64,000 nucleotides of DNA from an uncultured Candidatus Saccharibacteria bacterium (GCA_964610055.1 CAZSUC010000001.1:431912-495911); one strand, 5' to 3'; shown: positions 13,476-35,350, counted from the first letter of the stretch. Numbers and translations are program-made. Notes: generated by a model from the sequence alone, not told the origin.

Positions 13476-13481
13476 GGCGGC

Positions 13482-17301: not shown

Positions 17302-17323
17302 CTGCTTAAAACAGCGGTTTTCC

Positions 17324-18445: not shown

Positions 18446-18446
18446 A

Positions 18447-19819: not shown

Positions 19820-20146
19820 CTACTTTGATCTAGGCGAACAAACAAACCAATCTTGGTTCTTCGGGTTTACCCGCTCAAACTCAATTCCATTCCATTCATA
19901 AAGCAAGCAATACCAGGATTCATCAGCATGTAAACTACTCACATCACGAGCAATTACATCATCGCTTAGCTTTTCAAACTTTCGCTCCTCACCATTTAGT
20001 AAAGTGTAATCCGTTACTTCAACCTTAAAGGCAATTTCAATTCCCCCCTTCGCTTCATTTGAGTATATCCCTCCTTTACGGATCATGATGCTGGGTTCTC
20101 CTGTCGACCAATTGAATTTCTCGTCTTTATCCATAGCACTACTCAA
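19820..20146 (-). CDS. hypothetical protein, last gene of TIR operon
   Basis: 108 aa; start overlaps stop of TIR gene (ATGA); no recognisable domain. Confidence 0.45.
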   Translation of the reverse strand: MSSAMDKDEKFNWSTGEPSIMIRKGGIYSNEAKGGIEIAFKVEVTDYTLLNGEERKFEKLSDDVIARDVSSLHADESWYCLLYEWNGIEFERVNPKNQDWFVCSPRSK

Positions 20147-21123
20147 TTACCCTCATATTCACGCTCAATATGCTCAACCAAGTTCTCCCACAACAACTCA
20201 AGTAGCTCAGAGGTAGTCAACAAGACCTTACCAACGCCTACTGGCTTTAGTAAACTCACATCCATCAAGTTAATAACATATGAATCCTTTTCTTGACTCC
20301 ACTCAATTCCACCAAACGCATGCATTGCTTTGCGATCAAAACGCCGATCAGTCCACTGATAGAACGATATGTCATCATCACCAGTCATCCCACCAAGCCA
20401 GATAGCAAGATTGTAAATTTTCTTATTTCCACTTCTAACACGAACAATCCGCTCTCCATTACGATTAACTAACGAAACTTGAATACCTCTATCCTTAAGC
20501 AACTCCCCTCGCTTAACTAGCTCATCGACAAGAGAATCTACAACATAATCTGGGTCACTAGATGGATCATGTTCAATCGTTGGGATCCGCGGCAACCTAA
20601 TATTAACAGCGGGAGACACGGTCTGGGGTACTGACTCAACAACAACTTCACCACTAGGCGGCTGCACTTTCGCTGCTATACTTTGAGCTAACTCCTGAGG
20701 CGTAATTCTATTATTTCGCGCGTCGAGGTACTTAGTAGTTGGGTTTAACTGCTCTGGTAGCTCATCTCCTTGCAGCATAACTGGTAGAATGTAATCTCTC
20801 TTTCCACTTAAAACGCCCTGCGATAGCGCACTCTCTAACTCATGCGTTGTAAATGCCTTCTGTTGATAGATATCAGTAACAAAGATGACACAATAACTAG
20901 CACGACCTTTCCCAAAAATATTTTGTAGATACCCCGGCAAGCTATGGCCCCACATTTCCGTCTCTATATCTGGATCACGATCGTAAAATACAGAAACGCC
21001 TCTCTTCCGTAACTCACTATACACAGCTTCTACATATTCACGATCTTCACCTGCATAAGACAGCGCAACAGAATAAGTCGCTTTCTCTTCATTGGTACTG
21101 CTTTGTTCGTGCTTATTAACCAT
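20143..21123 (-). CDS. TIR-domain protein with ~170-aa C-terminal domain of unknown function
   Basis: N-terminal YSVALSYAGEDREYVEAVYSELRKRGVSVFYD and SYCVIFVTDIYQQKAFTTHELESAL match TIR motifs including the catalytic Glu position. Confidence 0.7.
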   Translation of the reverse strand: MVNKHEQSSTNEEKATYSVALSYAGEDREYVEAVYSELRKRGVSVFYDRDPDIETEMWGHSLPGYLQNIFGKGRASYCVIFVTDIYQQKAFTTHELESALSQGVLSGKRDYILPVMLQGDELPEQLNPTTKYLDARNNRITPQELAQSIAAKVQPPSGEVVVESVPQTVSPAVNIRLPRIPTIEHDPSSDPDYVVDSLVDELVKRGELLKDRGIQVSLVNRNGERIVRVRSGNKKIYNLAIWLGGMTGDDDISFYQWTDRRFDRKAMHAFGGIEWSQEKDSYVINLMDVSLLKPVGVGKVLLTTSELLELLWENLVEHIEREYEGN

Positions 21124-21167: not shown

Positions 21168-22919
21168 TTAAGATGATGTATCGACCGTAATTCCATCTTC
21201 AACCCAAGGGAATTCAAATTCCACATCTATTCTTGCCTTCTTGGGATACTTCTTCAGAAAATTCTCATTTTCATCCACTAGATAGATGGTGCAGTAATCT
21301 GATCCATCGACACGTTTAAGCTTTCGACCATTCAGGACACCCTTCCGCTCCAACGCCTTTCTCGTCGATGGATGAACACTATAGTCATAATTCGTTTGCC
21401 ATTCAGTAAACCAGGTATCCTCGTTATCGCTGTGTAGTGAGGGGATAATGCCTTCCTTAATGTTACGCCAACAGTCAGCGCAGCGAAGTCCATCAAGATT
21501 CCACCATGCTTTACTGCCAGGCATATTCTCACCACAAATACCACAGGTATACATACCACCCTCACTATCTTCTAAAAAGAATCCATCCGGCTCTTTCTCA
21601 AGTCTGCGCTTGCGTGCGTTCTCGATACCTTCAAACTCACCAGACATTTTAGCTAATTGCACCCAGTTGTTGTTGGCATGCTTTCGCTTCATCTCTTCCG
21701 TTATTTTCGCAGCTGGCTTCTTTGGTTGTTCTTCTGTATATAGCTCCATTAAGTCCTCTTCTCGTTCATAGCCACGAATACGTCCAGATAAATATCCGAG
21801 GCGGTAAGAGATATGACCAGACAAGAGTCGCCAGTTTGTATCCTTGAGAGTTTCCTTGATAAGCTGTCGTAACTCATATTCACTGGCGCGGGTACTACGG
21901 TTAGGGTCAGCATCCTGAACACTGAATGGAAGAATGAAATTCATACCATCCTCTGGCTTTCCAAGCGAGAATTCCATGTACTGCGCTTTTTCGAGAGGCT
22001 TAATGAGCTTCTTCTTAAGATCGGCGACCTTAATTTTCTTAAGCTTTGACACTTCAGCATACGCCTGACCCTCATATTTCTCTCGCTCTTCCTTCAGAAC
22101 AACTGAAGCGACTTCAAGTGCTTCTCGTTGATCAAGGGCGGCTTTGCCCTGTTCTTCGGTAAGACAGAATAGGTGACGATATTTTTTAAGTAGTGCCTCA
22201 TCCTTTTTCTTCTCTTTTTCCTTTTCAGCTTCAAATTCTGAGAAGTCATCTATTTCAGTAGCTGAATATCCACATGCTTTACATGCACTTGTAGTAGTAA
22301 CAACATCACCCTTTCTTTTAGATGTTACGGTTATTTCTTTCCCACACTCGGGACATAGGTCTGGCTCTGGCTTCCACTCCTTACCATTCTCAAAGATTGC
22401 TTTTCGTTTTTTGCAATCGGGACAGGCAAAAAAGAACAGCATCTTCGATGGCTTATCATTAATCCCAGTTCGAAGACTCTTAAAGGTGGCGTGCATAAGA
22501 ACACCACACTGACATTGAATATCCTGAGGTGGTGGAGTGTTATCGTATTTATTTTGAAGCTTTTGATCTTTTTCTACCCACTCAGCTATTGTCTTTTCTT
22601 TCTCTTCATAGCGGCCGGTTAGAGTATAGAAGAGTTGATTGTAGAGCATTCGGTTAAGGTGGTTCTTTGTTTGGAGGGGCGTTTCTGTATTTCGAGAGTC
22701 TTTGACCATTTTTTGATACGTTTTCTGGTAGACATCTACTACATCCAGTGCTCGATGGATGGTTATGAGGTCGTAAAGATCAGTGTAGTGTTGCCCCGAC
22801 TTCAAATAGAGAGACTTTTGCATAGCCTCTAGAAGGCCCCTTTCCTTGAGAGCCTTAACCCCATCAGAAGCATGATTGCCAAAGAAATACCCGTAATGAT
22901 AAACGCCTCCTGAATCCAT
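21168..22919 (-). CDS. multi-zinc-ribbon coiled-coil protein of unknown function
   Basis: 583 aa; CxxC pairs QCQCG..CPDCK, CPECG..CKACG, CGICG..CADCW; Lys/Glu-rich coiled coil; alternative start MQKSL at 22823 lies 5 nt after upstream stop. Confidence 0.5.
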   Translation of the reverse strand: MDSGGVYHYGYFFGNHASDGVKALKERGLLEAMQKSLYLKSGQHYTDLYDLITIHRALDVVDVYQKTYQKMVKDSRNTETPLQTKNHLNRMLYNQLFYTLTGRYEEKEKTIAEWVEKDQKLQNKYDNTPPPQDIQCQCGVLMHATFKSLRTGINDKPSKMLFFFACPDCKKRKAIFENGKEWKPEPDLCPECGKEITVTSKRKGDVVTTTSACKACGYSATEIDDFSEFEAEKEKEKKKDEALLKKYRHLFCLTEEQGKAALDQREALEVASVVLKEEREKYEGQAYAEVSKLKKIKVADLKKKLIKPLEKAQYMEFSLGKPEDGMNFILPFSVQDADPNRSTRASEYELRQLIKETLKDTNWRLLSGHISYRLGYLSGRIRGYEREEDLMELYTEEQPKKPAAKITEEMKRKHANNNWVQLAKMSGEFEGIENARKRRLEKEPDGFFLEDSEGGMYTCGICGENMPGSKAWWNLDGLRCADCWRNIKEGIIPSLHSDNEDTWFTEWQTNYDYSVHPSTRKALERKGVLNGRKLKRVDGSDYCTIYLVDENENFLKKYPKKARIDVEFEFPWVEDGITVDTSS

Positions 22920-25384
22920 CGCGGCTTATAAACAAAAACAACTTCATGAGCTTCTCCTGGCACGTAAACTCCTCGAAATATACTATCCGTTCGATAAACA
23001 GGAACTTCATTCCCATCGACATACGCCTTCCATCCTGGGAAAAGCACGTCTCTCATTACAAGAAATCCGTCACCTTCATTCTTCACTTGTACAGCAACGG
23101 TATTGCGATTGTCCTGGACGCCTAGAACTTCACCAGTGGCTGCAAAGTCCATATTTTCTGAAACACTAGCTACTGCAAAGTTGATATCCTGAGAGTCAAT
23201 ATCTAGTAAGATATTTTTCTGTTCTTTACTACTATCTGCAGATGCCTGTACATGCCTAACAAAATGCACTCTAGGAAATGCTTCTTTGTTCTCATAAGTA
23301 CGAATAATCTTATCCCCCAATGGAATTTCTGAGACCTCCTCAAAATCTAGAAGATTATCTGCAAAACGATAAGGTGGGTATAAGCCTATTACATGCGTGA
23401 TAGGGAAACGATTTACCAACGAACGGTTATCTTGCCAAGCTGAACCACTGCCACGATCACCAAGAAATTCTAAATACTTACTCACGTCGTATAGTGGAAG
23501 TGGTCCCGTCCATTGCGCAGTGTTAATTCCAAATCCAGCCGGTGTATAAGGCGCTAATAGTTCATAGCCTTTTATTAGATCATTCGATACTACCAACTGG
23601 AAGGATATGTCAGTCGTGTTATCTCCTGCGATTACAGCTTCACAGTCATCAACGTTCCTACAGGAAAAAAGTTGCCCAGTAGGATTGTACTGATTGCTAT
23701 CAGGGTTTGTATGTATGTATAAACGAGAAGCTTGTTGCTTTTGAGATATATCTGAAGTGATCTCAAAATACATTGCCTGATCCTGAATGTTATCCAATTG
23801 CTCAAAAGAAAACGTACTCCATTCACCATCTCTAATATTTTGAGTAGATATTGAGCTCTTTCTTAGTAAATCACCTCTATCGTCAAATAGCTTCAAGGTA
23901 ATTTCTCCAACCACCGAGGACTCAGAAAGGCGAAGATTAATACCATCAATTTGATTAAAGGGGGAGGAAAAACTTTGCCGATATGCATACTGTGGGACAA
24001 TAGGATTCCAAATCATAATCCCGAAGTTGTTGTGTGGAGCAATTGCCGATAAACGCTCTTTGGAAAAAACTCGTACAAATGAATTTTGACTATTAAAAAA
24101 CTTTGCTACTTCTGGTTCTTGAGTAGCCTGCCAAGACACTTCATCGTGCCATCGCCAAGAAACATAAAAAACAGGAACAATGCTTCCTATAAGAATTATC
24201 ACTGCGAGAACAGTCTTCATTCTTCTGCTATGAGCAAGGTTCACAATCCAGTGAAATCCGATAGCAGAAAGCAAAATTAAACCAATATTAGAAAATAGAA
24301 AGAAACGCGCGGGCGAATTAAAATATCTCCACCCCATATCAACTAACCACACATATACAGCCGAATCTTTTCCGAGGGCTAACACGAAACCAAGATTTGT
24401 AATCACTACAGAAAAAAGCCAAAGGAATCGAAAACTTTTTCTACCAACTAAAAGACCAAACAAAGAGAGAAGTAGCGTTATTGGACCCAAGTAGCTTGAT
24501 AGTTCAGCTTCATTTTTAGGCCCCATATATTCGTCACCATGACCAAACGGATGTGGAATCACTAGCCCCTTTAACGCCTCAATAGGAAAACTAAAATCCA
24601 ATAACTCCTCATCCGTGCTAACACCTTGTGCCCGATCAGTAAAAGGAATGACTTCAACTATTGGCAACCAGTAGAAAGATGTTAATCCAATGACGATGAA
24701 TACACTTATCAGAATCAATAGCGCCCGCTTCCATTTCTTGTAATCAGTGACAAGAAGACACAAAACGAATATCGCTTGTAAAACGAAGATGATGACAGCC
24801 ATCTGAGGATGGCCAACTAATACACAAAGGGAACTACTCAAAATCCAATAAATTAATATACGGACTCCCCCTGTTTTCAAAAACATTTGTAGAAAAAGAA
24901 ATAAAAGTGGCACCCAGGTAAAAGGCAAAATGAGATTAATCATTTCATACTTACCTACAAAGGCTGCCCCTAGTGGCAGCAACAACGCTGCCATCCCGGA
25001 TGCCATAGTCTGAACTTTGTTAAATCTCAAAAAAGAAAAAACACCAATCGCTGCTAATAAGCTGTGAATAAGCATTGAAATATTAAGCGTCCAAACAGCT
25101 GGGAAAAACTGGCGTAAAGCCATATGCAGTGGATAAAAGAAACCTAATTGACCGGTCGCAAGTAATGGGTAGCCACCAGCTAACTCGGGTGACCACAAAG
25201 GCAACTCTCCGGACCTTTGAATGACACCATATAGGTTTTCTAACGCCGTCGTAGTGGTAACGAGGTCGTTATTAAACCACAATCCCCGAAAAACCCACTT
25301 TGTAATAAAGAAAAGGCAGATAATTAAGGCAATAACGCCAAAACTTCTAGTATCAAAATTTAACTGAAAGTTTATTTTCCTCAT
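22829..25384 (-). CDS. YfhO-like polytopic membrane protein (putative GT-C type glycosyltransferase)
   Basis: 851 aa; ~12 TM helices in first ~420 aa then large extracytoplasmic C-terminal domain, the YfhO family architecture. Confidence 0.4.
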   Translation of the reverse strand: MRKINFQLNFDTRSFGVIALIICLFFITKWVFRGLWFNNDLVTTTTALENLYGVIQRSGELPLWSPELAGGYPLLATGQLGFFYPLHMALRQFFPAVWTLNISMLIHSLLAAIGVFSFLRFNKVQTMASGMAALLLPLGAAFVGKYEMINLILPFTWVPLLFLFLQMFLKTGGVRILIYWILSSSLCVLVGHPQMAVIIFVLQAIFVLCLLVTDYKKWKRALLILISVFIVIGLTSFYWLPIVEVIPFTDRAQGVSTDEELLDFSFPIEALKGLVIPHPFGHGDEYMGPKNEAELSSYLGPITLLLSLFGLLVGRKSFRFLWLFSVVITNLGFVLALGKDSAVYVWLVDMGWRYFNSPARFFLFSNIGLILLSAIGFHWIVNLAHSRRMKTVLAVIILIGSIVPVFYVSWRWHDEVSWQATQEPEVAKFFNSQNSFVRVFSKERLSAIAPHNNFGIMIWNPIVPQYAYRQSFSSPFNQIDGINLRLSESSVVGEITLKLFDDRGDLLRKSSISTQNIRDGEWSTFSFEQLDNIQDQAMYFEITSDISQKQQASRLYIHTNPDSNQYNPTGQLFSCRNVDDCEAVIAGDNTTDISFQLVVSNDLIKGYELLAPYTPAGFGINTAQWTGPLPLYDVSKYLEFLGDRGSGSAWQDNRSLVNRFPITHVIGLYPPYRFADNLLDFEEVSEIPLGDKIIRTYENKEAFPRVHFVRHVQASADSSKEQKNILLDIDSQDINFAVASVSENMDFAATGEVLGVQDNRNTVAVQVKNEGDGFLVMRDVLFPGWKAYVDGNEVPVYRTDSIFRGVYVPGEAHEVVFVYKPRWIQEAFIITGISLAIMLLMGLRLSRKGAF

Positions 25385-25530
25385 TTCCTGGTACGGATTT
25401 AGAGGCGAGGGCTATATAAACACAAAGCCCGCCGCCAGCTCGCAATCTTTCGATCGCGCATACCCCTTTCGGGGTATGACCGTACCAGGGCTGCTGAACG
25501 ACGGGTTCAGTATCCTGGTACGGGGTTTCA
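25385..25530 (-). promoter_or_regulatory. structured 5' leader RNA with alternative-pairing elements (candidate translational RNA switch)
   Basis: CCTGGTACGG at 25387-25396 and 25514-25523 and its complement at 25478-25487 (inside GACCGTACCAGG, 25478-25489); perfect hairpins CATACCCC-ttt-CGGGGTATG and CTGAAC-gacgg-GTTCAG; GC-rich vs surroundings; the copy at 25387 abuts the AGGAA-ATG of the downstream gene. Confidence 0.45.
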
Positions 25531-25624
25531 ATGCCATGCCTCGAAAATTGAGGTTTAGGCAAATATTCAGTTATGTATCCATTTTTGCTCTAAACAGGCT
25601 TTAAATCAACTTTTCTAAATACCA

Positions 25625-25652
25625 TTGACGATGAGAGCGTTAAGAGTAAAAT
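25625..25652 (+). promoter_or_regulatory. sigma70-like promoter (TTGACG-16-TAAAAT)
   Basis: TTGACG at 25625-25630, TAAAAT at 25647-25652. Confidence 0.45.
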
Positions 25653-25758: not shown

Positions 25759-25806
25759 CAAATGTAGAGTAGAGCTGGCAGTTAGCCTCGCGGGCGTAAC
25801 AGCGTA

Positions 25807-25876
25807 GAACTGTTCAGTGAAATCGAAGGTGGTTATTTTAACCATTTATTTTCGATGTCACTGAACAGTTTTTTGT
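25807..25876 (+). terminator. long intrinsic terminator / attenuator hairpin
   Basis: GAACTGTTCAGTGAAATCGAA ... TTCGATGTCACTGAACAGTT (about 20-bp stem, 1 mismatch) followed by TTTTTT. Confidence 0.55.
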
Positions 25877-25947
25877 TGGAGATAAGAAAATAAATAACAC
25901 CTTTGCTATCATCGAGCGTGGCTTTATTTAATCCTTCAAATAAAGTC

Positions 25948-27291
25948 ATGAAAAAGACTCCATACAAAAACCAACAAAATATCGACGTCGAGTACGTCAA
26001 CACAAAGAATCTAAAATCAGCGTCATATAACCCTCGGCATTGGAACGACGACGCAAGGAAGCAGCTCAAAGAGAGTGTGCGGCGATTCGGTCTCGTTGAT
26101 CCGATAATCTGCAATAGTGCTCCTTCTCGGAAAAACACAGTCATTGGTGGGCATTTTCGCTTGGCTGTTGCTAAAGAGCTTGGCTTCAAAGAAGTCCCCG
26201 TCGTTTACGTTAATATCCCTACTCTTGAGCGGGAAAAGGAACTTAATCTTCGACTCAATAAGAATCAAGGTGAATGGGATTTTGACCTATTGGCTGAATT
26301 CGATGAGAAATTACTCGCCGATGTCGGATTTAATTCCGAGGAGCTCGATGAAGTATTTGCTGAAATTGAAACGCCAGAAGAATTCGACCTTGAGAAAGAA
26401 CTTCAAAAACTTGATATCAAAACTGTTGAACTCAAGAAAGGTGACATCGTGCAATTAGGTGACAGTCGGATGCTAGTTGGAGACTCGACTATTGAGGCCG
26501 ATTTCATAAAGCTCATGAATGGTGAACAGGCGGACATGTGTCTGACCGATCCCCCATATTTACTAGATTATTTAAACGCCAAGCGTCATGGCAAAGCAGT
26601 AACAGGATTTGGGGCAAAGCGTGATCGACGGTATCTCGAAACGGATGTTTTACCAGATAACTTCACTGAGCTATGGATGGGTAATATTGCCAAGGTACAA
26701 AAAACAAACTTCAGTATTATCGTCTACGAGAATTGGAAGAATCTGCGCGTTATTTGGGAAGAAATGGAAAAGCACTGGAAAGTTAAGAACATGCTGGTCT
26801 GGCATCTGCCGAATCGCCATCAAGGCTTCTCCGCTAAGCACAAATTCTTCAGCAAGCATGACATCGCAATGGTAGGTGCAAGCAAGAATTCCGATGTCAC
26901 TTACAACCATTCCGAAGAAGCAGATGGTCTTCAAGAAGAATATGAGACTGCTTTGTATGCCATAGCCGGAAAACCACACTGGGAGGGATACAAGAAGGGC
27001 AAGAAAGTGATGCCAACTGACTTCATTGAATTCAATGCTTCTGATGAGAAGCATTCTGGGCAGGGCGTTGTGTTCGGTACCAAGCCCATCGAAATCCTCA
27101 TTCCCTACATCAAGGTACTCACGAAACGTGGCGACTTAATCGTGGAGCCATTCGGAGGATCAGGAAGTACATTGATCGCTGCCACGAAAATGAAGCGACG
27201 CTGCTACATCATGGAAAAATCTCCTGTATACGCGGAAGTGATTCGTAAGCGCTGGGAGAAGCTAACTGGGGAGAAAGGAGTGGTTGTATGA
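25948..27291 (+). CDS. ParB-like nuclease domain / DNA methyltransferase fusion (beta-class N6A or N4C)
   Basis: N-terminal ParB motif GGHFRLAVAKELGFKEVPVVYV; DPPY motif IV (CLTDPPYLL) preceding motif I (VEPFGGSGSTLIAA); ORF track begins at TTG 25903, ATG at 25948 more likely. Confidence 0.8.
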   Translation: MKKTPYKNQQNIDVEYVNTKNLKSASYNPRHWNDDARKQLKESVRRFGLVDPIICNSAPSRKNTVIGGHFRLAVAKELGFKEVPVVYVNIPTLEREKELNLRLNKNQGEWDFDLLAEFDEKLLADVGFNSEELDEVFAEIETPEEFDLEKELQKLDIKTVELKKGDIVQLGDSRMLVGDSTIEADFIKLMNGEQADMCLTDPPYLLDYLNAKRHGKAVTGFGAKRDRRYLETDVLPDNFTELWMGNIAKVQKTNFSIIVYENWKNLRVIWEEMEKHWKVKNMLVWHLPNRHQGFSAKHKFFSKHDIAMVGASKNSDVTYNHSEEADGLQEEYETALYAIAGKPHWEGYKKGKKVMPTDFIEFNASDEKHSGQGVVFGTKPIEILIPYIKVLTKRGDLIVEPFGGSGSTLIAATKMKRRCYIMEKSPVYAEVIRKRWEKLTGEKGVVV

Positions 27292-27722
27292 GCAAGGCAC
27301 TAGCCATAAAGCAGAGTAAGAAAAAAGAAGCATTACTTGAACAGCTCAGGAAAGTACCGATTGTGCAACTTGCCTGCGATCGCACTGACGTAAGTCGAGC
27401 AACGTTCTATCGCTGGAAGAAAAGTGATAAGGATTTTGCCGAAGCCGTTGATGAAGCTCTGCTATCAGGATCTTCGCTTATCAACGACATGGCGGAATCA
27501 AAGCTCATTGCCGCTATCAAAGAGGGCAACATGACTGGGATTATCTATTGGCTGAAACATCATCATCCGGCATATACCACCCGAGTAGAGCTGTCTGTGG
27601 GACCGAAGCAAAACGATGAGCTTACCGCTGAACAGCAGCAAGTAGTTCAAGAAGCGCTAGCAAAAGCAGCCCTTATTGAACAAGGGGAAATTAATTCACT
27701 AAATGAAACCTATGAAAAATAA
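27288..27722 (+). CDS. putative terminase small subunit (HTH)
   Basis: 144 aa; HTH RATFYRWKK; start overlaps methyltransferase stop (ATGA) and its end overlaps the large terminase start. Confidence 0.5.
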   Translation: MSKALAIKQSKKKEALLEQLRKVPIVQLACDRTDVSRATFYRWKKSDKDFAEAVDEALLSGSSLINDMAESKLIAAIKEGNMTGIIYWLKHHHPAYTTRVELSVGPKQNDELTAEQQQVVQEALAKAALIEQGEINSLNETYEK

Positions 27723-29151
27723 TATTCTATCGCCTGAAGTATTAGGTCACTTAATGCGTGACCGCATGGCACGACAAGCAGTAGCCTCTCATAACCATCT
27801 TCTGTTCTTCCATATCTACTTATCCCGATACGTAAAGTACGACACTGCAGAATTTCAACGTAAGCTATTCAAGCTCACCGAGGACTCGAGTATCCGACAT
27901 GCAGCTATCGTTGCATTTCGAGGGTCTGCCAAGACAACCATCATGACGCTTTCATACCCCCTTTGGGCTATCCTCGGTGTTCAGCAGCGTAAATTCGTCA
28001 TGCTTTTAAGCCAGACGCAGGGACAGGCTCAACAAATGCTTGTGAATCTGAAGCGTGAGATTGAGAATAATGAAATATTGCGGAATGACTTCGGTGCTCT
28101 TGAGCACGCAACCGATGAGTGGGGTCGAGAATCACTCGTTATCAAAAAATACGGTGCCAAGATTATGGCGGCTTCGAGCGAAACGAGTGTACGAGGCGTA
28201 CGGTTCGGAGAACACCGACCGGATCTCATCATCTGCGATGACGTTGAAGATTTGCAGTCAACCGCTACCCGAGAGGGACGCAATAAGACATATAACTGGC
28301 TCATGGGAGATATCATCCCAGCTGGAGACCGCAACACCCGAGTTGTTGTTATCGGAAATCTACTGCATGAAGACTCACTCCTCATGCGATTAAAAGAAGA
28401 TATGGATCGTGACCGACTTGATGGAGCCTTTCTGCAATTCCCTCTTTTGGATGAGAATGATAAGCCGCTCTGGCCAGGCAAGTTCCCTGACCAAGAAAGC
28501 ATTGATCGTCTACGTAAGACTGTACCAAGCCTACCAGCCTGGCATCGTGAATACATGCTTAACATTGTTCCAAATCAAGACCAGATTGTGCTTCAAGAGT
28601 GGATTAAATATTACGATAACCTTCCGCCAGAGGAGCGCTACAAAACTGTCGTGGCCGTTGATCTCGCAATCGGACTTGAGAAAAACAATGATTACACAGC
28701 AATCCTAAGTGCTCGCATTTATGGGTATGAAGATAAGATGCAGATATTTATTCTGCCAAATATCATCAACAAACGAATGAGCTTCCCAGACCAGCGCCTT
28801 ACGCTACAATCTGTTGCAGATAGCTTGGGGCATCCCAAGATATACATTGAAGATGTCGCCTATCAAAAATCGTTAATCCAGCAATTGAAAGCCGACGGGT
28901 ACAGTGTTGATGGCGCAAAGGTATTCGGACAAGACAAGTTCTCACGTCTCGAAACCGTAACTCATCTTTTGCAAAACGGTCAGGTGTTCTTCCCTCGAGA
29001 ACGTTCCAAGGAGCTTGTTAATCAGCTAACGGGCTTTGGAATTGAGAAACACGATGACCTAGCAGATGCCTTTTCAATTCTTCTGCAAAAAGCGATCGAG
29101 AATAACCGACGGCGAGGGCGAGTATGGGCACATAAGCCAAAGGGATTCTGA
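27703..29151 (+). CDS. phage terminase large subunit
   Basis: 482 aa; ATPase Walker A-like AFRGSAKTT, Walker B LIICDDVED; C-terminal RNaseH-like nuclease (VAVDLAIG...DYTAI). Confidence 0.8.
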   Translation: MKPMKNNILSPEVLGHLMRDRMARQAVASHNHLLFFHIYLSRYVKYDTAEFQRKLFKLTEDSSIRHAAIVAFRGSAKTTIMTLSYPLWAILGVQQRKFVMLLSQTQGQAQQMLVNLKREIENNEILRNDFGALEHATDEWGRESLVIKKYGAKIMAASSETSVRGVRFGEHRPDLIICDDVEDLQSTATREGRNKTYNWLMGDIIPAGDRNTRVVVIGNLLHEDSLLMRLKEDMDRDRLDGAFLQFPLLDENDKPLWPGKFPDQESIDRLRKTVPSLPAWHREYMLNIVPNQDQIVLQEWIKYYDNLPPEERYKTVVAVDLAIGLEKNNDYTAILSARIYGYEDKMQIFILPNIINKRMSFPDQRLTLQSVADSLGHPKIYIEDVAYQKSLIQQLKADGYSVDGAKVFGQDKFSRLETVTHLLQNGQVFFPRERSKELVNQLTGFGIEKHDDLADAFSILLQKAIENNRRRGRVWAHKPKGF

Positions 29152-29159: not shown

Positions 29160-30305
29160 CTAGACAAGGACATCATTGGAAGATTTTTCGCCAAAGAATT
29201 CACTAATCATCTCGTTGTATCTAAAGAAAGCACCAAGTAGTTGGAATGCATAGTCTGGTTGGATAATTCCATCCAATCGAAATAGCTTAATCTTTGTCGG
29301 CTTTCCCCTGCTCCTACTAAGAAGAGGATTCCACTCATCCCTAAATCTCTCATTGTGAACTGCTCGGCTATACGCAAAAACAGATCCATCAAAATGAGTA
29401 AACTTTTGCTGAGACCTATCCCATTCTAAGTGTGCAAACCGGTGCAGTACAACCTTGTCAGTAATTCCAGCACTTCCATTAATTGGCAAAATTTCTTCGA
29501 CAGAAATCGATTTCTTAGGTCCTGTCGACTGATTTTTTATATCAAAGACTGTAGCGTTAATCGGGTAGGTATCGTCCAGTATTTTCTTCTGACTATTTTC
29601 CATCCTCTTGTGCAGTGTCGTTCCTACATAATTTTGATCATTCAAATTTTCAATTGAAAAGTAAGGACCATGCCAATAGTCAGCCTCTACATACTCTAAA
29701 TAGTTCTTCGAATCAGTCATTCGGCTTGGATCAACAGCTAACTTAAGCTCAATATCATTATCATCATGAGCCTTCATCAGCAGGCTAGTTGTATCAGTAA
29801 ACTTTCCCTGAAAAAACCTTCGCAAAAATGGATGATAGTAGATAAGCTTATCTCCAAAAATAATTCCCTGTCTTCTTAAATCAAACAAACTAGCTTCTAC
29901 CAAATTATCACCATCAAACTCCAATTTCTCTTTCTTCAAAAAATCTACCACCAAACCACTGCCACCACGTTCAATATAAAAATTGATTCTCGGGAATAGT
30001 TTATCAACGTCATAGGTTATACATGCAAAAACAATATCTTCAATATTTTCAGAGCCCATTGGAAATAGCAGAAGTTTAAGATCAGGATATTTTTCCATTA
30101 AATCTTGAATATCTGCTTTTTTAACTCTCGTCTTATAAATAGCATCGAGCTTATCGTATAGGTGACGTAGCTGACTGCTATTTAGATAAAAATTTAAACG
30201 AGTAGGAATTCCATCCCTATGAAAAAGCTCTTGGGAAAAGTTGTTGAGCAATTCCTCCTCTGAGCTATTACCACCAACAAAATTGAGAATCGTCTTTTCT
30301 TGCAT
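29160..30305 (-). CDS. hypothetical protein (island cargo, unknown function)
   Basis: 381-aa ORF convergent with terminase large subunit; no recognisable motifs. Confidence 0.45.
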   Translation of the reverse strand: MQEKTILNFVGGNSSEEELLNNFSQELFHRDGIPTRLNFYLNSSQLRHLYDKLDAIYKTRVKKADIQDLMEKYPDLKLLLFPMGSENIEDIVFACITYDVDKLFPRINFYIERGGSGLVVDFLKKEKLEFDGDNLVEASLFDLRRQGIIFGDKLIYYHPFLRRFFQGKFTDTTSLLMKAHDDNDIELKLAVDPSRMTDSKNYLEYVEADYWHGPYFSIENLNDQNYVGTTLHKRMENSQKKILDDTYPINATVFDIKNQSTGPKKSISVEEILPINGSAGITDKVVLHRFAHLEWDRSQQKFTHFDGSVFAYSRAVHNERFRDEWNPLLSRSRGKPTKIKLFRLDGIIQPDYAFQLLGAFFRYNEMISEFFGEKSSNDVLV

Positions 30306-30377: not shown

Positions 30378-31661
30378 ATGAGCGACATCCGCTACTGCCT
30401 ATATGCCAGAAAATCGTCAGAACGGGACGAACTTCAAGCCCTTTCAGTGGATTCCCAAGTAAAAGAGATGCAGGACATGGCTAGACGAGATGGGATTAAC
30501 GTGGTGGAGATATATCGAGAAAGTCACTCAGCTAAAGACTCGGGGCAACGTCCGGTATTCATGAAGCTAATTGAAGATATTAGGAGTAGCAAATTCAATG
30601 GAATTCTGACATGGGCGCCAGACCGCTTAAGCAGAAACGCTGGTGACCTGGGATCACTAGTTGATCTCATGGATCAAAAGAAGCTTGAAGAAATCCGCAC
30701 TCACGGTCAGACATTCCATAACTCGCCGAATGAAAAATTCTTACTCATGATCCTGTGTAGCCAAGCCAAGCTTGAGAACGACAATCGAGGACTAAATGTG
30801 AAGCGAGGCCTGCGCGCTAAGTGTGAGATGGGGTATAGGCCAGGGGTATCGCCGCTTGGGTATCTCAACAATAAATTTGCGAAGAAGGGCGAGAAGAAAG
30901 TTACACTTGATCCCGCTCGCGCGCCCATTATTAGGGAGATGTTCGAGAAGGTCGCATATGAAGGCTACAGCGGCCATCAAATACTAAGATGGATTAACAA
31001 TGAGACCGACTTTACTACCAGATCAGGAAAACAAATGGTGCTAAGCACCGTCTATCTCCTACTTCGCGATACTTACTACTATGGGAAATTTGAATACCCG
31101 AAGGGTAGCGGAAATTGGTACAAAGTTAATCACAAATCAATCATCACTAAGAAGATATTTGATCTGGTACAAGAAAATATCGTGGCTACAAAAAAGCGTA
31201 AGCCCGGAACACTGGAGTTCGACTTCACTCGGCTCATAACTTGCGGTGAGTGTGGCTCTGGAATATCAGCGGAGGAGAAATACAAACAACTTAAAAACGG
31301 ATCAGTAAATAGATATGTGTATTACCGATGCAGTAAGGGCAAGCGAGTAGAATGTCACGAACCGTACGTAAGAGAAGAAAACCTTGTTGAGCAGCTATTA
31401 CAGCTGATAGACAATCTGGATATGGATAAAATGCTTATTAGTAATAAGCTAGCCAAAGAATTAGAAAAGTACCAAAAGTTCGCATCTGGAGTGCTGCAGG
31501 TAGAAGAAATTAGTAGTACGCCAAAAGTAGATATTCGCAGTTATGCGAAGTATGTTTTAAAAGAGGGCAGTCGAAGCGAGAAAAGAGACATCTTATCTTG
31601 TCTGCAAACAAAATTAATTCTTACCAATCAAAAAATTTCTCTTAGAGCGCATAGCAACTAG
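30378..31661 (+). CDS. large serine recombinase
   Basis: 427 aa; resolvase catalytic domain YCLYARKSS...Q; recombinase domain; zinc ribbon CGECGSG...YYRCSKG. Confidence 0.9.
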   Translation: MSDIRYCLYARKSSERDELQALSVDSQVKEMQDMARRDGINVVEIYRESHSAKDSGQRPVFMKLIEDIRSSKFNGILTWAPDRLSRNAGDLGSLVDLMDQKKLEEIRTHGQTFHNSPNEKFLLMILCSQAKLENDNRGLNVKRGLRAKCEMGYRPGVSPLGYLNNKFAKKGEKKVTLDPARAPIIREMFEKVAYEGYSGHQILRWINNETDFTTRSGKQMVLSTVYLLLRDTYYYGKFEYPKGSGNWYKVNHKSIITKKIFDLVQENIVATKKRKPGTLEFDFTRLITCGECGSGISAEEKYKQLKNGSVNRYVYYRCSKGKRVECHEPYVREENLVEQLLQLIDNLDMDKMLISNKLAKELEKYQKFASGVLQVEEISSTPKVDIRSYAKYVLKEGSRSEKRDILSCLQTKLILTNQKISLRAHSN

Positions 31662-31678: not shown

Positions 31679-34600
31679 CTAAGCACTGCATATAACATCA
31701 AGATCTGTTCCAATAGTTTCTTTCAAGTAACTATGCGCAGCTGCAAGTACGGCTGCTTGCTCCGGGGTATGCGAAGCAAGCGAAAGCCCTGGTTGGACTA
31801 TAACTATCTCTGACCTTATCTCTTTAAACCTACTTACCTTTACATAGCGGTTAAGGTCTGAGGTTTGACCTACCAAAAAACGAGTTGCTCTGACCACTTT
31901 TATCAATCTCTTCTCTCTTCCCAAAACATGGCGGCATAAATCTCTAAATTTCCATTTCCACTTTGCTGACCGAATAGCCTGAGAACACACTTCAACTACA
32001 TCATTTACTCGTTCACCGGGGGTACTTCCCTTTGTAAATTTGCAATGAACCAATGTGAGTCTAATATGATCATCCTCTTCCTTTAAACAAACAAGATCAG
32101 CCGCCTCTCCTGAAGCGTCGTCATTAAATACCACGTCAAAGCCCCCTTCAATGAAATGCTGCGCAGCACGCCACTGAATCGAATCCAAATGCTCAGCGCC
32201 CTCTTTCCACATTGATTCCTTGCTAATGTCCACACCTTCCCAATCCCAAACCTCAAATCTTTCTACGGGAAAAGTGAGATCTTGTGTGCTCTGAGGGCGA
32301 ATCAGAAGGTTGCCATCCAGTTCTGATAGATCCATAAAACGTATTAGTGGAGGATAGTTAGAAAAATACTCTTCAACTTTCACTTCTAAGGAGCCGACTC
32401 GAATTTTTAGTTCCATCGAAGATGAGCGAGTAACCCGAAAGCCCTCTATACCCCCAACAGTTAGTTTAAAAATCCCCCAAACATCTCCTGTACTTGAACG
32501 AAGTTGGAAATCAACCTCACTAGTTGTTGCATCAGAGTGTAGTATTTCGATATCAAACATAGCAATCGATAGCTCATCATCTCCCTTTAGCAGTGTCACG
32601 CGCTCTTCCGACTGACGTATCAACTCTACCGGCCAGTCGATGCTTAATATTTGTGCGTCTGGAAGAGCGGTAACCTCTTCCGGAATCAAAACGTTTTCAA
32701 TAATTTTTTTTGTATCAATAGTATCGTCTTTCAACTTCCTACCAACAGCTTCACACCATCTTACAAGCTCGGGTACAGTCCCGGGCTCACGGGCCCAAAT
32801 ACGGCCCTTATATGAACACCCTATTGTTACCGGCCCACCATTTTCCCAGCCTGTTCCACTCAGGTTTGATTTTATAGATCCAGCTCTTTCTGAAATACTT
32901 AGAGCTTCTGCAACATCAGAACCTGTATACAACGCGTACCTTAAATTACGTCGCCCATGCTTCCGAACTCCCACATTTTGAAAAATCAGGCGATTAATAT
33001 TGCCAAGCGACCGAAAAATTATATCTCCTGATATTATCTGTGTACCACCGACTGCTAATGCAACCTTTTCATGATTTGAAGATTTGTCGCTCGATGACAG
33101 AAAAAGCAACCCTTGATCCTGATCATAGTGAAGAACAAAAAGATCCCATATGCGATCACGAATCTTTTTTGAGCGGGTCCACCGGATCGGTGGCTCCAGC
33201 CGAGTTACAAAATAAAGAGTATTTGTTTCCTCATGAAGCCATACCCTATGCACATTGAGACCTTTTGGTATTCCTTTAAAAAACCTTTTTGGGTTAAAAG
33301 ATGCTGCTTCATAGACAAGGGTACTGAAAGTTGGCCTTAGAAGATGGTGCGATATCTCAAGCTCCTCATCACCGTCAACTTCATCAAGTCTCTGTGACGA
33401 GTTAAGAAATTCAACCAAAGATGCGTGAGACCGAGCAGCATCAGAACTAAGCTCACTTAGAAGGTGGTTCCAGTCAGCATCTTCACTGTAAAGTCTTTCT
33501 AAAGCAGAAGACACACCTTGCTCGGCAATATTCGCAATCACAGTTGCATCACCAATTGACTCAGCAGAACTTCGAGTAAATCTTCCGGTAAATTGCAGAA
33601 GTATTGCTAAACTTTTGTGCGTATCATGAATAGCGGCAACTTTCAGTTGAGGAAGATCAAAACCTTCTCCTAGCATATTAACACACACGACTATTCGACT
33701 CCCTCCAGACCTTAACGTGTCTATCAATCCATCGGTATCAGCTAAATCAGAGTGAACAAGAACAGGGTTAAGATCGGGAGCAATTTCTTGATAAATTTGG
33801 CAAACATAGCTAGCCCTGCTTATGTTTGCACATCTTGCCATCATTATGTGGTTTTTCCCTGAGGCGACATCTTCACGTAAACGATCCACTGCAGCTTTTG
33901 CAATTGCCTGATCGGCTGCCTCTTGGTCAATCTCATAAACTGATTCAAAAGAAATCTTTTTGAAATATCCATCACGCTGTGCCAATTGAAGTGGGTATTC
34001 ATAAATCACTTTCCCATCAACCAACTTCCCATCTCGCCGATATGGTGTGGCAGTAAACTGTAAAACTTTGCACGCAGAAAAATTTTCACGGAAAGATGCC
34101 CAACCCTTTGCTGCGACGTGATGAGCCTCGTCAACAATTAAAGTATCAACTACTTCCGCAACTGCAGGTAGCAGACTAGATGTAACACTTCCAGTTAAAG
34201 CGCTCATGGTAGCTACTACTACGTTGCAATCCTCGAATATGCTGACTTCATCCTTAGTCCGGGGGCGCCTGGTAACTATTCCCACAATAGGGTTTTTTGC
34301 TCCAGGCATTAGGTTCCCAAGTGATCGCAGTAAGCCAAGGGTAAGAAATTTTTTAGCCGTTTGATCGCGCAGCACTCTAGACGGAACCACAACTAGTAAC
34401 CTCCCAGAGGCATATGCGATCAAGGTGGCAAGCATTGTCTCGGTTTTGCCAGTACCTGTGGGCATTACGATGGTAGCTGGCTGATTATTCAAGCTCCAGT
34501 GTGAACCGATTGCATGCAGTCCTCCTATTTGAGGTGGCCTTAAACCCTTCGATACAACATTACCAGCTTTATCCCTCTCCTCAGCATGAAAACTAAACTT

Positions 34601-34999: not shown

Positions 35000-35127
35000 T
35001 TGTTAACCCCATACAATAGTATATCCACGACACTTAGGCACGCCTGGACTTAGGGGCACTTCTGTGCTCCATATGATAATTGAGACCTTGGATAGAGTCC
35101 GGTTGACTCGAACTAAATTGGCTTGCT

Positions 35128-35276: not shown

Positions 35277-35350
<74 letters not shown>

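What the first reader, a model, noticed from the sequence alone, without database searches (positions are those of the whole stretch)
25948..29151. Phage packaging module (ParB-methyltransferase, small and large terminase) with no capsid, portal or tail genes: satellite-like or decayed prophage
The orphan ParB-domain beta-class methyltransferase followed by coupled terminase small and large subunit genes is a classic phage head-packaging cassette. No structural, lysis or replication genes occur anywhere in the island. Instead the cassette is flanked by defence-like cargo, a serine recombinase and an XRE regulator. Such gene content is reminiscent of phage-inducible chromosomal islands or satellites that hijack helper capsids, or of a prophage eroded to its defence-beneficial remnants.
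Basis: partly seen in the sequence, partly recalled or inferred. Interest (0 to 1): 0.55.

Follow-up and report, generated by a model that had tools for sequence, protein, structure and literature searches.

The report
Capsid-less terminase island of CPR bacteria
The three phage packaging genes are real and intact, and they form the fixed core of a large family of small mobile islands in ultra-small (CPR) bacteria that carry defence genes and no capsid genes, so they most likely ride in the capsids of other phages.

Summary
ParB-methyltransferase (25903/25948-27291), TerS (27288-27722) and TerL (27703-29151) are overlapping, intact genes. They sit in a roughly 17.7-kb island (about 17.4-35.1 kb) with no virion, lysis or replication genes.

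"Decayed prophage" is not supported. The colinear module ParB-MTase > TerS > TerL > large serine recombinase recurs in about 150 loci, mostly from Patescibacteria/CPR MAGs.
- **Selection:** the TerL catalytic motifs are conserved, and pN is 0.08-0.20 against saturated pS.
- **Descent:** the island TerLs form one clade. Its sister group is real phages in which portal and capsid genes follow TerL.
- **Integration:** the first tRNA gene downstream of the recombinase always has its 3' end facing the recombinase (47 of 47 loci), so the islands insert beside tRNA genes. Here the gene is tRNA-Gln.
- **Cargo:** it is variable and rich in defence genes (TIR, CBASS-like, R-M, OLD, reverse transcriptase).

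Two unreported parts belong to the element. One is a LOOT RNA (Rfam RF03000, 25441-25561), found in about a quarter of the loci. The other is a strong terminator-like leader hairpin in front of the packaging operon.

The best reading is a new kind of phage satellite that brings its own complete terminase and borrows capsids. Packaging, a helper phage and excision are inferred, not shown.

The parts
17302..17515 (.). Left boundary zone (attL not resolved)
   Evidence: Housekeeping genes (rpiB, rpe, transketolase, DUF378) end at 17301. In three sequencing runs, 100%-identical public contigs of the left flank stop at 17411 and island contigs start at 17515. No repeat or att-like dyad was found.
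17639..19157 (-). Two secreted or anchored proteins of unknown function (268 aa and 236 aa); presumed cargo
   Evidence: No hit in Pfam, PHROGs, PADLOC or NCBIfam. N-terminal hydrophobic segments are visible in the sequences.
19262..19465 (+). XRE-family HTH regulator (67 aa)
   Evidence: HTH_3 at E 2.9e-15; PHROG transcriptional repressor/regulator families. XRE homologues occur in 23 of 65 related loci.
20143..21123 (-). TIR-domain protein (326 aa); defence-type cargo
   Evidence: TIR_2 at E 2.2e-14; PADLOC PDC-S66, ThsB-like and RT-TIR hits.
21168..22919 (-). Multi-zinc-ribbon protein, about 550 aa; recurrent accessory gene of the family; function unknown
   Evidence: Homologues lie on the far left of the cargo region in 11 other loci and next to the host genes in L094. 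The family has at least 638 members, of which the few that carry an organism name are mostly Patescibacteria, with invariant Cys pairs. The AF2 model has pLDDT 81.7 and no PDB match.
22829..25384 (-). 851-aa polytopic membrane protein (weak YfhO-like C-terminus); cargo
   Evidence: YfhO at E 2.6e-6, below the cut-off. Many hydrophobic segments. Contiguous with the island on the identical 17.8-kb contig.
25441..25561 (-). LOOT RNA (Rfam RF03000), divergent from the packaging operon
   Evidence: 82.9 bits against a gathering score of 46.4, full-length model match. The 69-aa ORF at 25353-25562 that overlaps it has no family hit. LOOT passes the Rfam threshold in 17 further related loci.
25625..25652 (+). 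Promoter-like site for the packaging operon
   Evidence: TTGACG-16-TAAAAT, 10 of 12 matches. This is a consensus match only; the region holds no more such sites than its shuffles.
25800..25878 (+). Leader hairpin followed by a U-run (terminator-like), about 25-30 nt before the methyltransferase ORF
   Evidence: MFE -40.8 kcal/mol, z -9.2, 0 of 200 shuffles fold as well. The 20-nt arms are 95% complementary. Similar hairpins with U-runs precede the methyltransferase gene in L082, L007, L021, L022 and L025. They are enriched over control genes.
25903..27291 (+). ParB_N-domain / beta-class N6/N4 DNA methyltransferase
   Evidence: Present in 55 of 65 and 73 of 80 related loci. pN 0.08-0.15 against pS 0.71-0.82 versus the closest relatives.
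27288..27722 (+). Terminase small subunit (HTH, 144 aa)
   Evidence: phrog_309 and phrog_4044. It overlaps both neighbouring genes. Conserved beside TerL. TerS and TerL identities co-vary (rho 0.42, 0 of 500 permutations).
27703..29151 (+). Terminase large subunit (ATPase plus RNaseH-like nuclease), intact
   Evidence: phrog_38 at 3.2e-83. The Walker A (AFRGSxKT), Walker B (DLxxxDDVED) and nuclease (DLAI, E..YQ, EKHDDLxDAF) motifs are at least 90% conserved in 67 island TerLs.
29160..30305 (-). 381-aa protein of unknown function; cargo in the TerL-recombinase slot
   Evidence: No family hits. A homologue in L007 sits in the other cargo slot. The AF2 model has pLDDT 82 and no PDB match, so it is not an HK97-like or portal fold.
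30378..31661 (+). Large serine recombinase (integrase) of the element
   Evidence: Resolvase, Recombinase and Zn_ribbon_recom domains; phrog_95 integrase at 1e-65. It lies downstream of TerL on the same strand in 47 of 65 and 54 of 80 loci, and less than 220 bp after TerL in 15 of 44.
31679..34999 (-). 1106-aa SF2 helicase with a nuclease-like C-terminus; defence-type cargo between the recombinase and the tRNA
   Evidence: ResIII, DEAD and Helicase_C; PADLOC PbeA, HamB and Cas3-like hits. Homologues in L024 and L052 lie in the left cargo slot.
35125..35196 (-). tRNA-Gln(CTG): host gene marking the right end and the probable integration target
   Evidence: In 47 of 47 related loci that have a tRNA downstream of the recombinase, that tRNA is on the opposite strand with its 3' end facing the recombinase (Gln 16, Ser 20, others 11). 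26 of them lie within 255 bp.

Best explanation
The cassette is the conserved core of an integrative mobile island of roughly 17.7 kb (window about 17.4-35.1 kb) in a Saccharibacteria-type genome. The island belongs to a large family found mostly in Patescibacteria/CPR.

Shown:
- The family is defined by a colinear module: ParB-methyltransferase, TerS, TerL, then a large serine recombinase.
- It inserts beside the 3' end of tRNA genes (tRNA-Gln in this window).
- It has variable cargo slots filled largely with anti-phage defence genes.
- It has no virion, lysis or recognisable replication genes.
- Its TerL clade is sister to TerLs of real phages that have the same methyltransferase-TerS-TerL order followed by portal, protease and HK97-type capsid genes.

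Inferred origin: the element descends from the left arm of such a temperate phage.

Inferred mechanism: it now behaves as a phage satellite.
1. It sits repressed, held by XRE or LexA-like regulators, and a leader terminator keeps the packaging operon off.
2. On infection or induction by a related helper phage, the terminator is read through and the recombinase excises the element.
3. The element's own TerS recognises its DNA, and its own TerL docks on helper procapsids and fills them with island DNA.
4. The methyltransferase pre-modifies that DNA against restriction in the next host.
5. The recombinase then integrates the element beside a tRNA gene.

Taking over procapsids, together with the defence cargo, would also protect the host population from the helper. 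The LOOT RNA is proposed, with no direct evidence, to be the element's regulatory RNA.
For: Gene identities and intactness.

Conserved colinear module:
- 65 genome loci: methyltransferase in 55, TerS in 52, recombinase in 47.
- IMG/VR loci L066-L073.
- The closest relatives, at 78-80% TerL identity, have different cargo.
- 80 metagenome loci: methyltransferase in 73, TerS in 76, recombinase in 54. All 50 loci that hold all four genes are colinear on one strand.

Purifying selection on all four genes: pN 0.08-0.20 against pS 0.69-0.88.

No virion genes:
- PHROG and Pfam scans of the window.
- Aggregate scans of 89 downstream and 122 upstream or intervening proteins from related loci.
- tblastn with portal, protease and capsid proteins of the sister phages found no significant match in the window or in about 155 island loci (one chance-level match at E 0.009).
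- The same proteins are easily recognised where they exist, at E 1e-72 to 1e-105 in L074, L075 and L057.

Phylogeny: the 67 island TerLs are monophyletic, with phages L074 and L057 as sister.

Site-specific integration: 47 of 47 downstream tRNAs face the recombinase with their 3' end.

Mobility and heterogeneity:
- The island assembles as its own 17.4-17.8-kb contig, and contigs break near both of its ends in three runs.
- Cargo differs between close relatives.
- One MAG holds two copies, L007 and L021.

Defence cargo: TIR and helicase-nuclease in the window. Elsewhere SMODS/AGS_C, AAA_15/21, OLD-TOPRIM, reverse transcriptase, type I R-M and SIR2-HerA.

Regulation: a LexA-like S24 repressor and an HTH_17/MerR excisionase-like gene occur in relatives. 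The leader hairpin with U-run is described.
Against: - No helper phage has been identified for this genome.
- No excised circle, empty site or particle-borne copy was seen. None of the fully held metagenome contigs is circular. The one 44-bp terminal repeat (L007) lies in paralogous RHS-like genes and may be an assembly effect.
- No replication module was recognised in the window element or in the conserved core, so it is unclear how a packageable concatemer would arise.
- att sites were not found.
- The right-hand contig break is in tRNA-Arg (35294-35322), not at the tRNA-Gln 3' end.
- Known satellites without capsid genes carry at most TerS. A satellite with its own TerL but no capsid has no documented precedent in the definitions I could read.
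- The TerL tree is a single neighbour-joining tree without support values.
- The metagenome set partly duplicates the genome set, because MAGs derive from the same samples.
Confidence: 0.55

Rival explanations
1. Mobile island whose terminase has been exapted for a capsid-independent job. One version is an ATP-driven, TerS-guided nuclease paired with the methyltransferase as a restriction-like or anti-phage module. Another is processing of the element's own DNA after excision.
For: The methyltransferase is always next to an ATPase-nuclease (TerL) and a DNA-binding subunit (TerS), which is formally like a modification/restriction pair. The islands are full of defence genes. No helper, capsid or replicon was found. 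All three genes are under purifying selection without a capsid nearby.
Against: The same methyltransferase-TerS-TerL order occurs in the sister phage L074 directly before portal and capsid genes, so the adjacency is ancestral phage synteny and needs no new function. TerL keeps its full length, including the C-terminal nuclease domain. PADLOC has no model matching TerL. No capsid-independent terminase function is known to me (from memory).
Confidence: 0.15
2. GTA-like arrangement: the island supplies the packaging enzymes, and capsids are encoded elsewhere in the host chromosome rather than by an infecting helper phage.
For: An intact terminase must act on some procapsid. Only 64 kb of a roughly 0.7-Mb genome was visible here.
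Against: There are no portal or capsid homologues anywhere in the window. The module travels with a recombinase, sits at different tRNA genes, carries different cargo in close relatives and is patchily distributed. That is the behaviour of a mobile element, not of a domesticated host function. I know of no report of GTA-type clusters in CPR (from memory).
Confidence: 0.08
3. An autonomous, very small temperate virus whose structural proteins are too divergent to be recognised among the unassigned island genes.
For: Several conserved island proteins have no assignable function: the roughly 550-aa zinc-ribbon protein, the roughly 250-aa proteins upstream of the methyltransferase in relatives, and the 381-aa protein.
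Against: The unassigned genes are mostly on the opposite strand and differ between relatives. The AF2 models of the 381-aa and 583-aa proteins resemble no capsid, portal or tail fold in the PDB. A TerL of this type needs a portal, and portals of the sister phages are detected at E below 1e-70. Some members put the recombinase within 16-91 bp of TerL and have only a few further genes.
Confidence: 0.05
4. Eroded prophage remnant kept only for its defence cargo; the packaging genes are inert relics.
For: The module is phage-derived and lacks head, tail and lysis genes. Truncated copies exist: L055 has only TerL residues 157-482, and L064 and L062 hold fragments.
Against: The architecture is conserved over about 150 loci at 40-80% identity. 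The genes show pN far below pS and conserved catalytic motifs. The TerLs form a single clade, and integration is conserved beside tRNA genes.
Confidence: 0.04

Closest known systems
Phage-inducible chromosomal islands (PICI / SaPI)
   Same: A small integrative island of about 10-20 kb with a repressor-type regulator, its own TerS, accessory and defence cargo, and no virion or lysis genes. The presumed spread is in hijacked helper capsids. The definitions are as summarised in PMC10085698.
   Different: It has a large serine recombinase instead of a tyrosine integrase, and the integrase is at the packaging end of the element. There is no primase-replicase and no capsid-morphogenesis gene. It carries a complete terminase (TerL as well as TerS), a ParB-methyltransferase and often a LOOT RNA. 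The hosts are CPR bacteria, whereas more than 99.9% of detected PICIs were in Proteobacteria or Firmicutes.
Capsid-forming PICI (cfPICI)
   Same: These satellites encode both TerS and TerL, so packaging is independent of the helper's terminase.
   Different: cfPICIs also encode capsid, portal, protease and head-tail adaptor/connector genes. These are their distinguishing core components, and all are absent here.
Tailed phages of the sister TerL clade (loci L074, L057/L077, L075)
   Same: They share the methyltransferase-TerS-TerL order. Their TerLs are 36-40% identical to the window's and up to 47% identical to other island TerLs, and they branch next to the island clade.
   Different: In the phages TerL is followed by portal (phrog_2662/12), a head-morphogenesis domain, protease and an HK97-type major capsid protein (phrog_10). 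In the islands it is followed by the recombinase, cargo and a tRNA gene.
Satellite P4 (RNA-based immunity)
   Same: This is only an analogy, recalled from memory: P4 is a satellite that carries a small structured RNA as a regulatory component.
   Different: There is no sequence or structural relation. LOOT's function is untested. P4 has no terminase genes and uses a tyrosine integrase.

Membership tests
Terminase large subunit (TerL) | N-terminal ASCE ATPase with Walker A and Walker B motifs | tested here: met
   AFRGSAKT and DLIICDDVED are present and at least 90% conserved in 67 island TerLs. phrog_38 at 3.2e-83.
Terminase large subunit (TerL) | C-terminal RNaseH-like nuclease with conserved acidic residues | tested here: met
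   Terminase_6C covers residues 318-462. psiM2_ORF9 is above its cut-off. The DLAI, E..YQ and HDDLxDAF motifs are conserved.
Terminase small subunit (TerS) | Small HTH protein encoded directly upstream of TerL, with similarity to known TerS families | tested here: met
   phrog_309, phrog_4044 and phrog_4102. It overlaps TerL by 20 bp. Ring oligomerisation and pac-site binding are not testable here.
ParB_N-fused beta-class N6/N4 DNA methyltransferase | N-terminal ParB/Srx domain, and a methyltransferase with motif IV (DPPY) before motif I (FxGxG) | tested here: met
   ParB_N covers 29-105 and N6_N4_Mtase covers 211-448. The sequence reads ..TDPPYLL.. then ..EPFGGSGST...
Large serine recombinase | Resolvase catalytic domain, Recombinase domain and zinc-ribbon domain, with the N-terminal catalytic serine motif | tested here: met
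   All three Pfam domains are above their cut-offs. The sequence has YARKSSERD near the N-terminus. phrog_95 integrase at 1e-65.
PICI | Integrase (the described PICI use a tyrosine integrase, from memory) at one end of the island | tested here: inconclusive
   An integrase is present, but it is a large serine recombinase placed after the terminase genes.
PICI | Regulation module (AlpA, MerR or Stl homologue) | tested here: inconclusive
   The window has only an XRE HTH. Relatives have HTH_17/MerR and LexA-like S24 repressors.
PICI | Primase-replicase module | tested here: not met
   No primase or Rep hit in any island ORF or among the conserved accessory genes.
PICI | Small terminase subunit, and no other structural or lysis genes | tested here: met
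   TerS is present and no structural or lysis genes were found. TerL is also present, and the reference scheme treats TerL as a cfPICI marker.
cfPICI | Capsid, portal, protease and head-tail adaptor/connector genes alongside TerS and TerL | tested here: not met
   None were found in the window or in about 155 related loci. The folds of the 381-aa and 583-aa proteins are unrelated to capsid or portal folds.
Prophage (intact or defective) | Head, tail and lysis modules, or their remnants, within the integrated element | tested here: not met
   Conservation of the capsid-less architecture argues against remnants.
Phage satellite (functional definition) | Helper-dependent induction and packaging of the element's DNA in helper-encoded particles | not testable with these tools
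   This needs read-level junction analysis, particle DNA or experiments.
P4-like satellites / PLE | Family-specific markers (psu, sid, delta, eps and a primase for P4; the PLE core set) | not tested
   No dedicated profiles were run. The general PHROG and Pfam scans gave no such hits.
LOOT RNA (Rfam RF03000) | Covariance-model score at or above the family's gathering threshold over the full model | tested here: met
   82.9 bits against 46.4, model positions 1-121.

The most novel reading that the evidence does not exclude
These islands are the first phage satellites of CPR/Patescibacteria and a new satellite architecture: capsid-less, but self-sufficient for DNA recognition, cutting and translocation (own TerS plus TerL plus protective methyltransferase), integrated by a serine recombinase beside tRNA genes, and gated by a leader terminator. 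The orphan LOOT RNA would be their dedicated regulatory RNA. They would then be a major vehicle for defence-gene exchange among ultra-small bacteria.
Probability: 0.4. Interest if true: 0.8.

Novelty: new variant of a known kind. Interest (0 to 1): 0.68.

Why it matters
CPR bacteria are a large part of bacterial diversity, yet little is known about their phages, mobile elements or routes of gene exchange. A review of oral TM7 notes how little evidence for phage association exists.

This window exposes a very large, coherent family of mobile islands in that group. At least 3,565 TerL relatives score below E 1e-10 among the 8,000 candidates examined. The islands move anti-phage systems (TIR, CBASS-like, R-M, OLD, reverse transcriptases), metal pumps and efflux pumps.

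If the satellite reading holds, three things follow:
- Phage satellites would extend to a new phylum-level group.
- A third packaging strategy would be added: a complete terminase with no capsid genes, alongside the TerS-only PICIs and the capsid-forming cfPICIs.
- LOOT, an RNA motif of unknown function, would gain a genomic home and a testable role.

The serine recombinases with tRNA-adjacent targets may also be of practical interest. In my full-text searches I found no paper describing this family. That library is incomplete, so prior description cannot be excluded.

Tried and rejected
- **Direct repeats at the island ends:** none beyond chance.
- **LSR-type att dyads:** I scanned 3,520 junction pairs around both ends. 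The best score was about 3.5 sd above the mean, which is within expectation for that many trials. The att sites remain unknown.
- **Empty site or circle from public assemblies:** look-ups of flanking and island proteins returned 100%-identical contigs that break near both ends (17411, 17515, and 35294-35322). No junction contig was returned. The right break lies in tRNA-Arg, not tRNA-Gln, so these breaks are only approximate support.
- **Circular copies:** only L007 has a terminal repeat (44 bp), and it lies inside paralogous RHS-like genes. None of the 80 metagenome loci has one.
- **Known phages:** the best TerL match in 50,697 phage records is below 30% identity.
- **Fold searches:** the 381-aa and 583-aa proteins had no informative PDB match.
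- **Pfam on the conserved 200-390-aa proteins upstream of the methyltransferase in relatives:** no hits.
- **Module co-evolution:** the TerL-recombinase correlation is significant but weak (rho 0.18), so recombinase swapping probably occurs.
- **Literature:** eight full-text searches found no description of the family. The Pseudomonas AH14b satellite and the nanohaloarchaeal satellites are unrelated. The paper that introduced LOOT has no held supplement, so the meaning and the reported distribution of LOOT could not be checked.
- **One call failed on wrong coordinates**.
- **Host taxonomy:** I did not verify it for about 20 loci whose NCBI titles read Gammaproteobacteria, Pseudomonadales or Bdellovibrionales.

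Full report
**1. What is at the coordinates**

Three co-oriented ORFs occupy 25903-29151.

- The first (25903-27291; the first ATG is at 25948) has a ParB_N domain and an N6_N4 methyltransferase domain. It matches a phage methyltransferase family at E 3.4e-81. DPPY precedes FGGSGST in the sequence, which is the beta-class motif order.
- The second (27288-27722, 144 aa) matches terminase-small-subunit PHROGs at about 1e-9.
- The third (27703-29151, 482 aa) matches the terminase-large-subunit family phrog_38 at 3.2e-83 over nearly its whole length. It also matches Terminase_6C and psiM2_ORF9 above its cut-off.

The genes overlap by 4 and 20 bp.

**2. The island around it**

To the left, housekeeping genes (transketolase, rpe, rpiB, DUF378) end at 17301. 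To the right lie tRNA-Gln (35125-35196, minus strand) and tRNA-Arg. Between them the island holds:
- two secreted proteins of unknown function;
- an XRE regulator;
- a TIR protein;
- a 583-aa zinc-ribbon protein;
- an 851-aa membrane protein;
- the packaging cassette;
- a 381-aa unknown protein;
- a large serine recombinase with all three diagnostic domains;
- a 1106-aa helicase-nuclease.

No ORF hits a virion, lysis or replication family in Pfam, PHROGs, PADLOC or NCBIfam. AlphaFold models of the 381-aa and 583-aa proteins (pLDDT 82) match no capsid, portal or other informative fold in the PDB.

The window is 100% identical to public contigs from three sequencing runs. In those runs the island is a separate 17.4-17.8-kb contig (17515-35322). 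The flank contigs end at 17411 and begin at 35294/35296. Proteins of the island are also recorded on an NCBI contig of 698,565 bp, a genome size typical of Saccharibacteria. The nearest named relative of TerL is in a Saccharibacteria MAG (L055).

**3. The cassette is the core of a family, not a remnant**

TerL relatives at 38-52% identity occur in 65 genome loci. By record title these divide as follows:
- 35 Patescibacteria lineages;
- 6 unclassified;
- 17 Gammaproteobacteria or Pseudomonadales and 3 Bdellovibrionota-type titles, which I did not verify;
- 3 archaeal;
- 1 Omnitrophota.

Gene calling and all-against-all clustering gave these counts:

| Gene | Loci with it (of 65) |
|---|---|
| ParB-methyltransferase | 55 |
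| TerS | 52 |
| Large serine recombinase | 47 |

The order is always methyltransferase, often a second methyltransferase, TerS, TerL, then the recombinase, all on one strand. The same holds in several other sets:
- IMG/VR contigs L066-L073;
- the two closest relatives, at 78-80% TerL identity, which carry different cargo;
- 80 further metagenome loci, with methyltransferase in 73, TerS in 76 and recombinase in 54.

In the metagenome set all 50 loci with all four genes are colinear. That set partly overlaps the MAG set.

The recombinase starts less than 220 bp after TerL in 15 of 44 loci. At least 3,565 database proteins match TerL below E 1e-10 among the 8,000 candidates scored.

**4. The genes are functional**

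Against the two closest relatives, all four core genes have pN 0.08-0.20 with synonymous sites saturated (pS 0.69-0.88). In 67 island TerLs the Walker A, Walker B and three nuclease motifs are at least 90% conserved. TerS and TerL identities co-vary (rho 0.42). The TerL-recombinase correlation is weaker (rho 0.18) but beats all but 3 of 500 permutations.

**5. Relation to real phages**

Four loci (L074, L075, L057, L077) have a TerL 36-40% identical to the window's, preceded in L074 by a methyltransferase and a TerS-sized gene. There TerL is followed by portal, a head-morphogenesis domain, protease and an HK97-type capsid protein. These are detected at E 1e-72 to 1e-105.

tblastn with these structural proteins finds them only in those phage loci. 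Apart from one chance-level match (E 0.009 in L030), they are absent from the window, the roughly 75 other loci and the 80 metagenome loci.

Aggregate scans covered 89 co-oriented proteins downstream of TerL and 122 upstream or intervening proteins from the island loci. They show host genes and defence genes but no virion family among the 25 families listed for each scan.

In a neighbour-joining tree the 67 island TerLs form one clade that excludes the phage TerLs, with L074 and L057 as sister (no support values). The simplest history is that the left arm of a temperate phage (regulators, methyltransferase, terminase) became an element of its own, with a recombinase in place of the morphogenesis genes.

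**6. Integration beside tRNA genes**

In the first set, 19 of 48 loci with a recombinase have a tRNA gene downstream. All 19 are on the opposite strand, so the tRNA 3' end faces the recombinase (Gln 9 including the window, Ser 7, Glu, Met, Asn). Ten are within 250 bp.

In the metagenome set the figure is 28 of 28 (Ser 13, Gln 7, Glu 4, Asn 2, Tyr, Lys), with 16 within 255 bp.

Forty-seven of 47 in one orientation, with two tRNA species dominating, is the signature of site-specific insertion at tRNA 3' ends. In the window the helicase-nuclease lies between the recombinase and tRNA-Gln, as cargo does in L018, L025 and L036.

I could not find att sites. There are no repeats or dyads, which is expected if crossover is at a dinucleotide. 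The right-hand contig break lies 170 bp further on, in tRNA-Arg. The ends are therefore known only to within about 200 bp.

**7. Cargo and regulators**

Cargo sits in three slots: left of the methyltransferase, between TerL and the recombinase, and between the recombinase and the tRNA. It differs even between close relatives.

Recognised cargo includes TIR, SMODS/AGS_C, AAA_15/AAA_21, OLD-TOPRIM, reverse transcriptases, type I R-M, SNF2-PLD helicases and SIR2-HerA. It also includes a CopA-type ATPase and MarR-MFS-MacB efflux genes.

Recurrent non-cargo accessories are:
- a LexA-like S24 repressor and a 60-aa HTH_17/MerR protein, a candidate excision factor;
- a secreted DUF4352 protein;
- unassigned proteins of 200-390 aa just upstream of the methyltransferase;
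- the roughly 550-aa zinc-ribbon protein, of which the window's 583-aa ORF is a member.

**8. Two features not in the finding**

(a) A LOOT RNA (Rfam RF03000) lies at 25441-25561 on the minus strand, 342 bp upstream of and divergent from the methyltransferase gene. It scores 82.9 bits against a threshold of 46.4. It overlaps a 69-aa ORF that has no family hit in Pfam or PHROGs.

LOOT passes the Rfam threshold in 17 other loci of the first set. A model built from these finds it in 21 of the 80 metagenome loci.

It occupies one of three places:
- about 340-480 bp upstream of the methyltransferase;
- between TerL and the recombinase;
- 38-68 bp after the recombinase.

Its function is unknown. The describing paper's supplement was not available.

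(b) Between a promoter-like site (25625-25652) and the methyltransferase ORF lies a long hairpin at 25800-25878 with -40.8 kcal/mol and z -9.2, followed by a U-run. Similar terminator-like hairpins precede the methyltransferase gene in five of six relatives examined. Overall they occur in 20% of methyltransferase upstream regions against 4% for control genes. This suggests the packaging operon is held off by termination and opened by antitermination, but that is inference.

**9. Mechanism and confidence**

An intact terminase under selection needs procapsids with a portal, and the element encodes none. The most economical model is therefore a satellite that borrows procapsids from a related helper phage while using its own TerS and TerL to select and pump its DNA. 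The methyltransferase would pre-protect that DNA, and the recombinase would insert it beside a tRNA gene in the next cell (confidence 0.55).

The following steps are inferred: helper dependence, excision, packaging, and the roles of LOOT and the hairpin. The main gaps are the missing replication module, the missing att sites and the lack of any observed circular or particle-borne copy.

| Rival | Confidence |
|---|---|
| Capsid-independent exaptation of the terminase | 0.15 |
| Capsids encoded elsewhere in the host | 0.08 |
| Unrecognised structural genes | 0.05 |
| Inert prophage remnant | 0.04 |

**10. Comparison with known systems and novelty**

By the published core-component definitions, the element is neither a PICI nor a cfPICI.
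- It is not a PICI because it has no primase-replicase and no capsid-morphogenesis gene. It also has a serine integrase and carries TerL.
- It is not a cfPICI because it has no capsid, portal or adaptor genes.

It works most like a PICI with a cfPICI-style self-contained terminase. I found no description of the family in eight full-text searches, though the library is incomplete. I rate it a new variant of a known kind, with interest 0.68.

Noticed in passing
window 25441-25561 (-): LOOT RNA (Rfam RF03000, 82.9 bits) sits divergent from the packaging operon. The overlapping 69-aa ORF at 25353-25562 has no family hit. LOOT recurs in about a quarter of related islands, at three characteristic positions next to the core genes.
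   Followed up: yes
window 25800-25878 (+), with a promoter-like site at 25625-25652: A very stable hairpin (-40.8 kcal/mol, z -9.2) with a U-run lies in the leader of the methyltransferase-TerS-TerL operon. Similar hairpins occur in several relatives, so the operon may be under antitermination control. An 18-codon ORF (25703-25759) lies between the promoter-like site and the hairpin.
   Followed up: partly
L054, L063, L066, L068, L069 (e.g. L066:675-3700): Some islands carry two tandem full-length TerL paralogues (about 520 aa each) after TerS, which is an unusual arrangement for a terminase.
   Followed up: no
L007:1-17334: A 17,334-bp Falkowbacteria contig holds a whole island (two methyltransferases, TerS, TerL, two tandem serine recombinases, LOOT, RHS-like toxins). 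It has an exact 44-bp terminal repeat, and an ORF reads through the junction. It may be a circular copy, or an assembly effect of paralogous RHS-like genes.
   Followed up: partly
L064:3025-3336 and 11616-11692: A degraded island (a TerL fragment plus the recombinase) lies between an intact tRNA-Asn and an upstream tRNA-Asn-like copy. The two halves of that copy (48 nt at 98% identity and 39 nt at 100%) are separated by about 225 bp. It could be an att duplication, an interrupted tRNA or a tandem-insertion scar.
   Followed up: no
L009:14520-14760 (-): A group I intron hit (78.7 bits) lies about 1.6 kb downstream of the island's recombinase in a Parcubacteria MAG.
   Followed up: no
L093:2638-5326: In one long JGI contig a ParB-methyltransferase of this type is followed by 200-aa and 262-aa genes with no Pfam hit on record instead of TerS and TerL. 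SIR2, the zinc-ribbon protein, a DUF87/TrwB-like ATPase and a Replic_Relax gene lie nearby. This may be a variant or hybrid element.
   Followed up: no
window about 5849-13802 (-): A V/A-type ATPase operon (subunits A, B, F, C/AC39, K, I) lies next to pentose-phosphate genes in this small genome, according to Pfam labels on the identical public contig.
   Followed up: no
window 17411-17515 and 35294-35322: Public assemblies from three runs break at the same positions near both island ends, leaving an uncovered 103-bp gap on the left and breaking inside tRNA-Arg on the right. This could reflect population heterogeneity or repeats.
   Followed up: partly
L002, L014, L052 and about 17 other loci: About 20 islands are in MAGs titled Gammaproteobacteria, Pseudomonadales or Bdellovibrionales, several of them from co-assembly ('binchicken') bins. 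Either the host range is wider than CPR or these labels or bins are unreliable.
   Followed up: no
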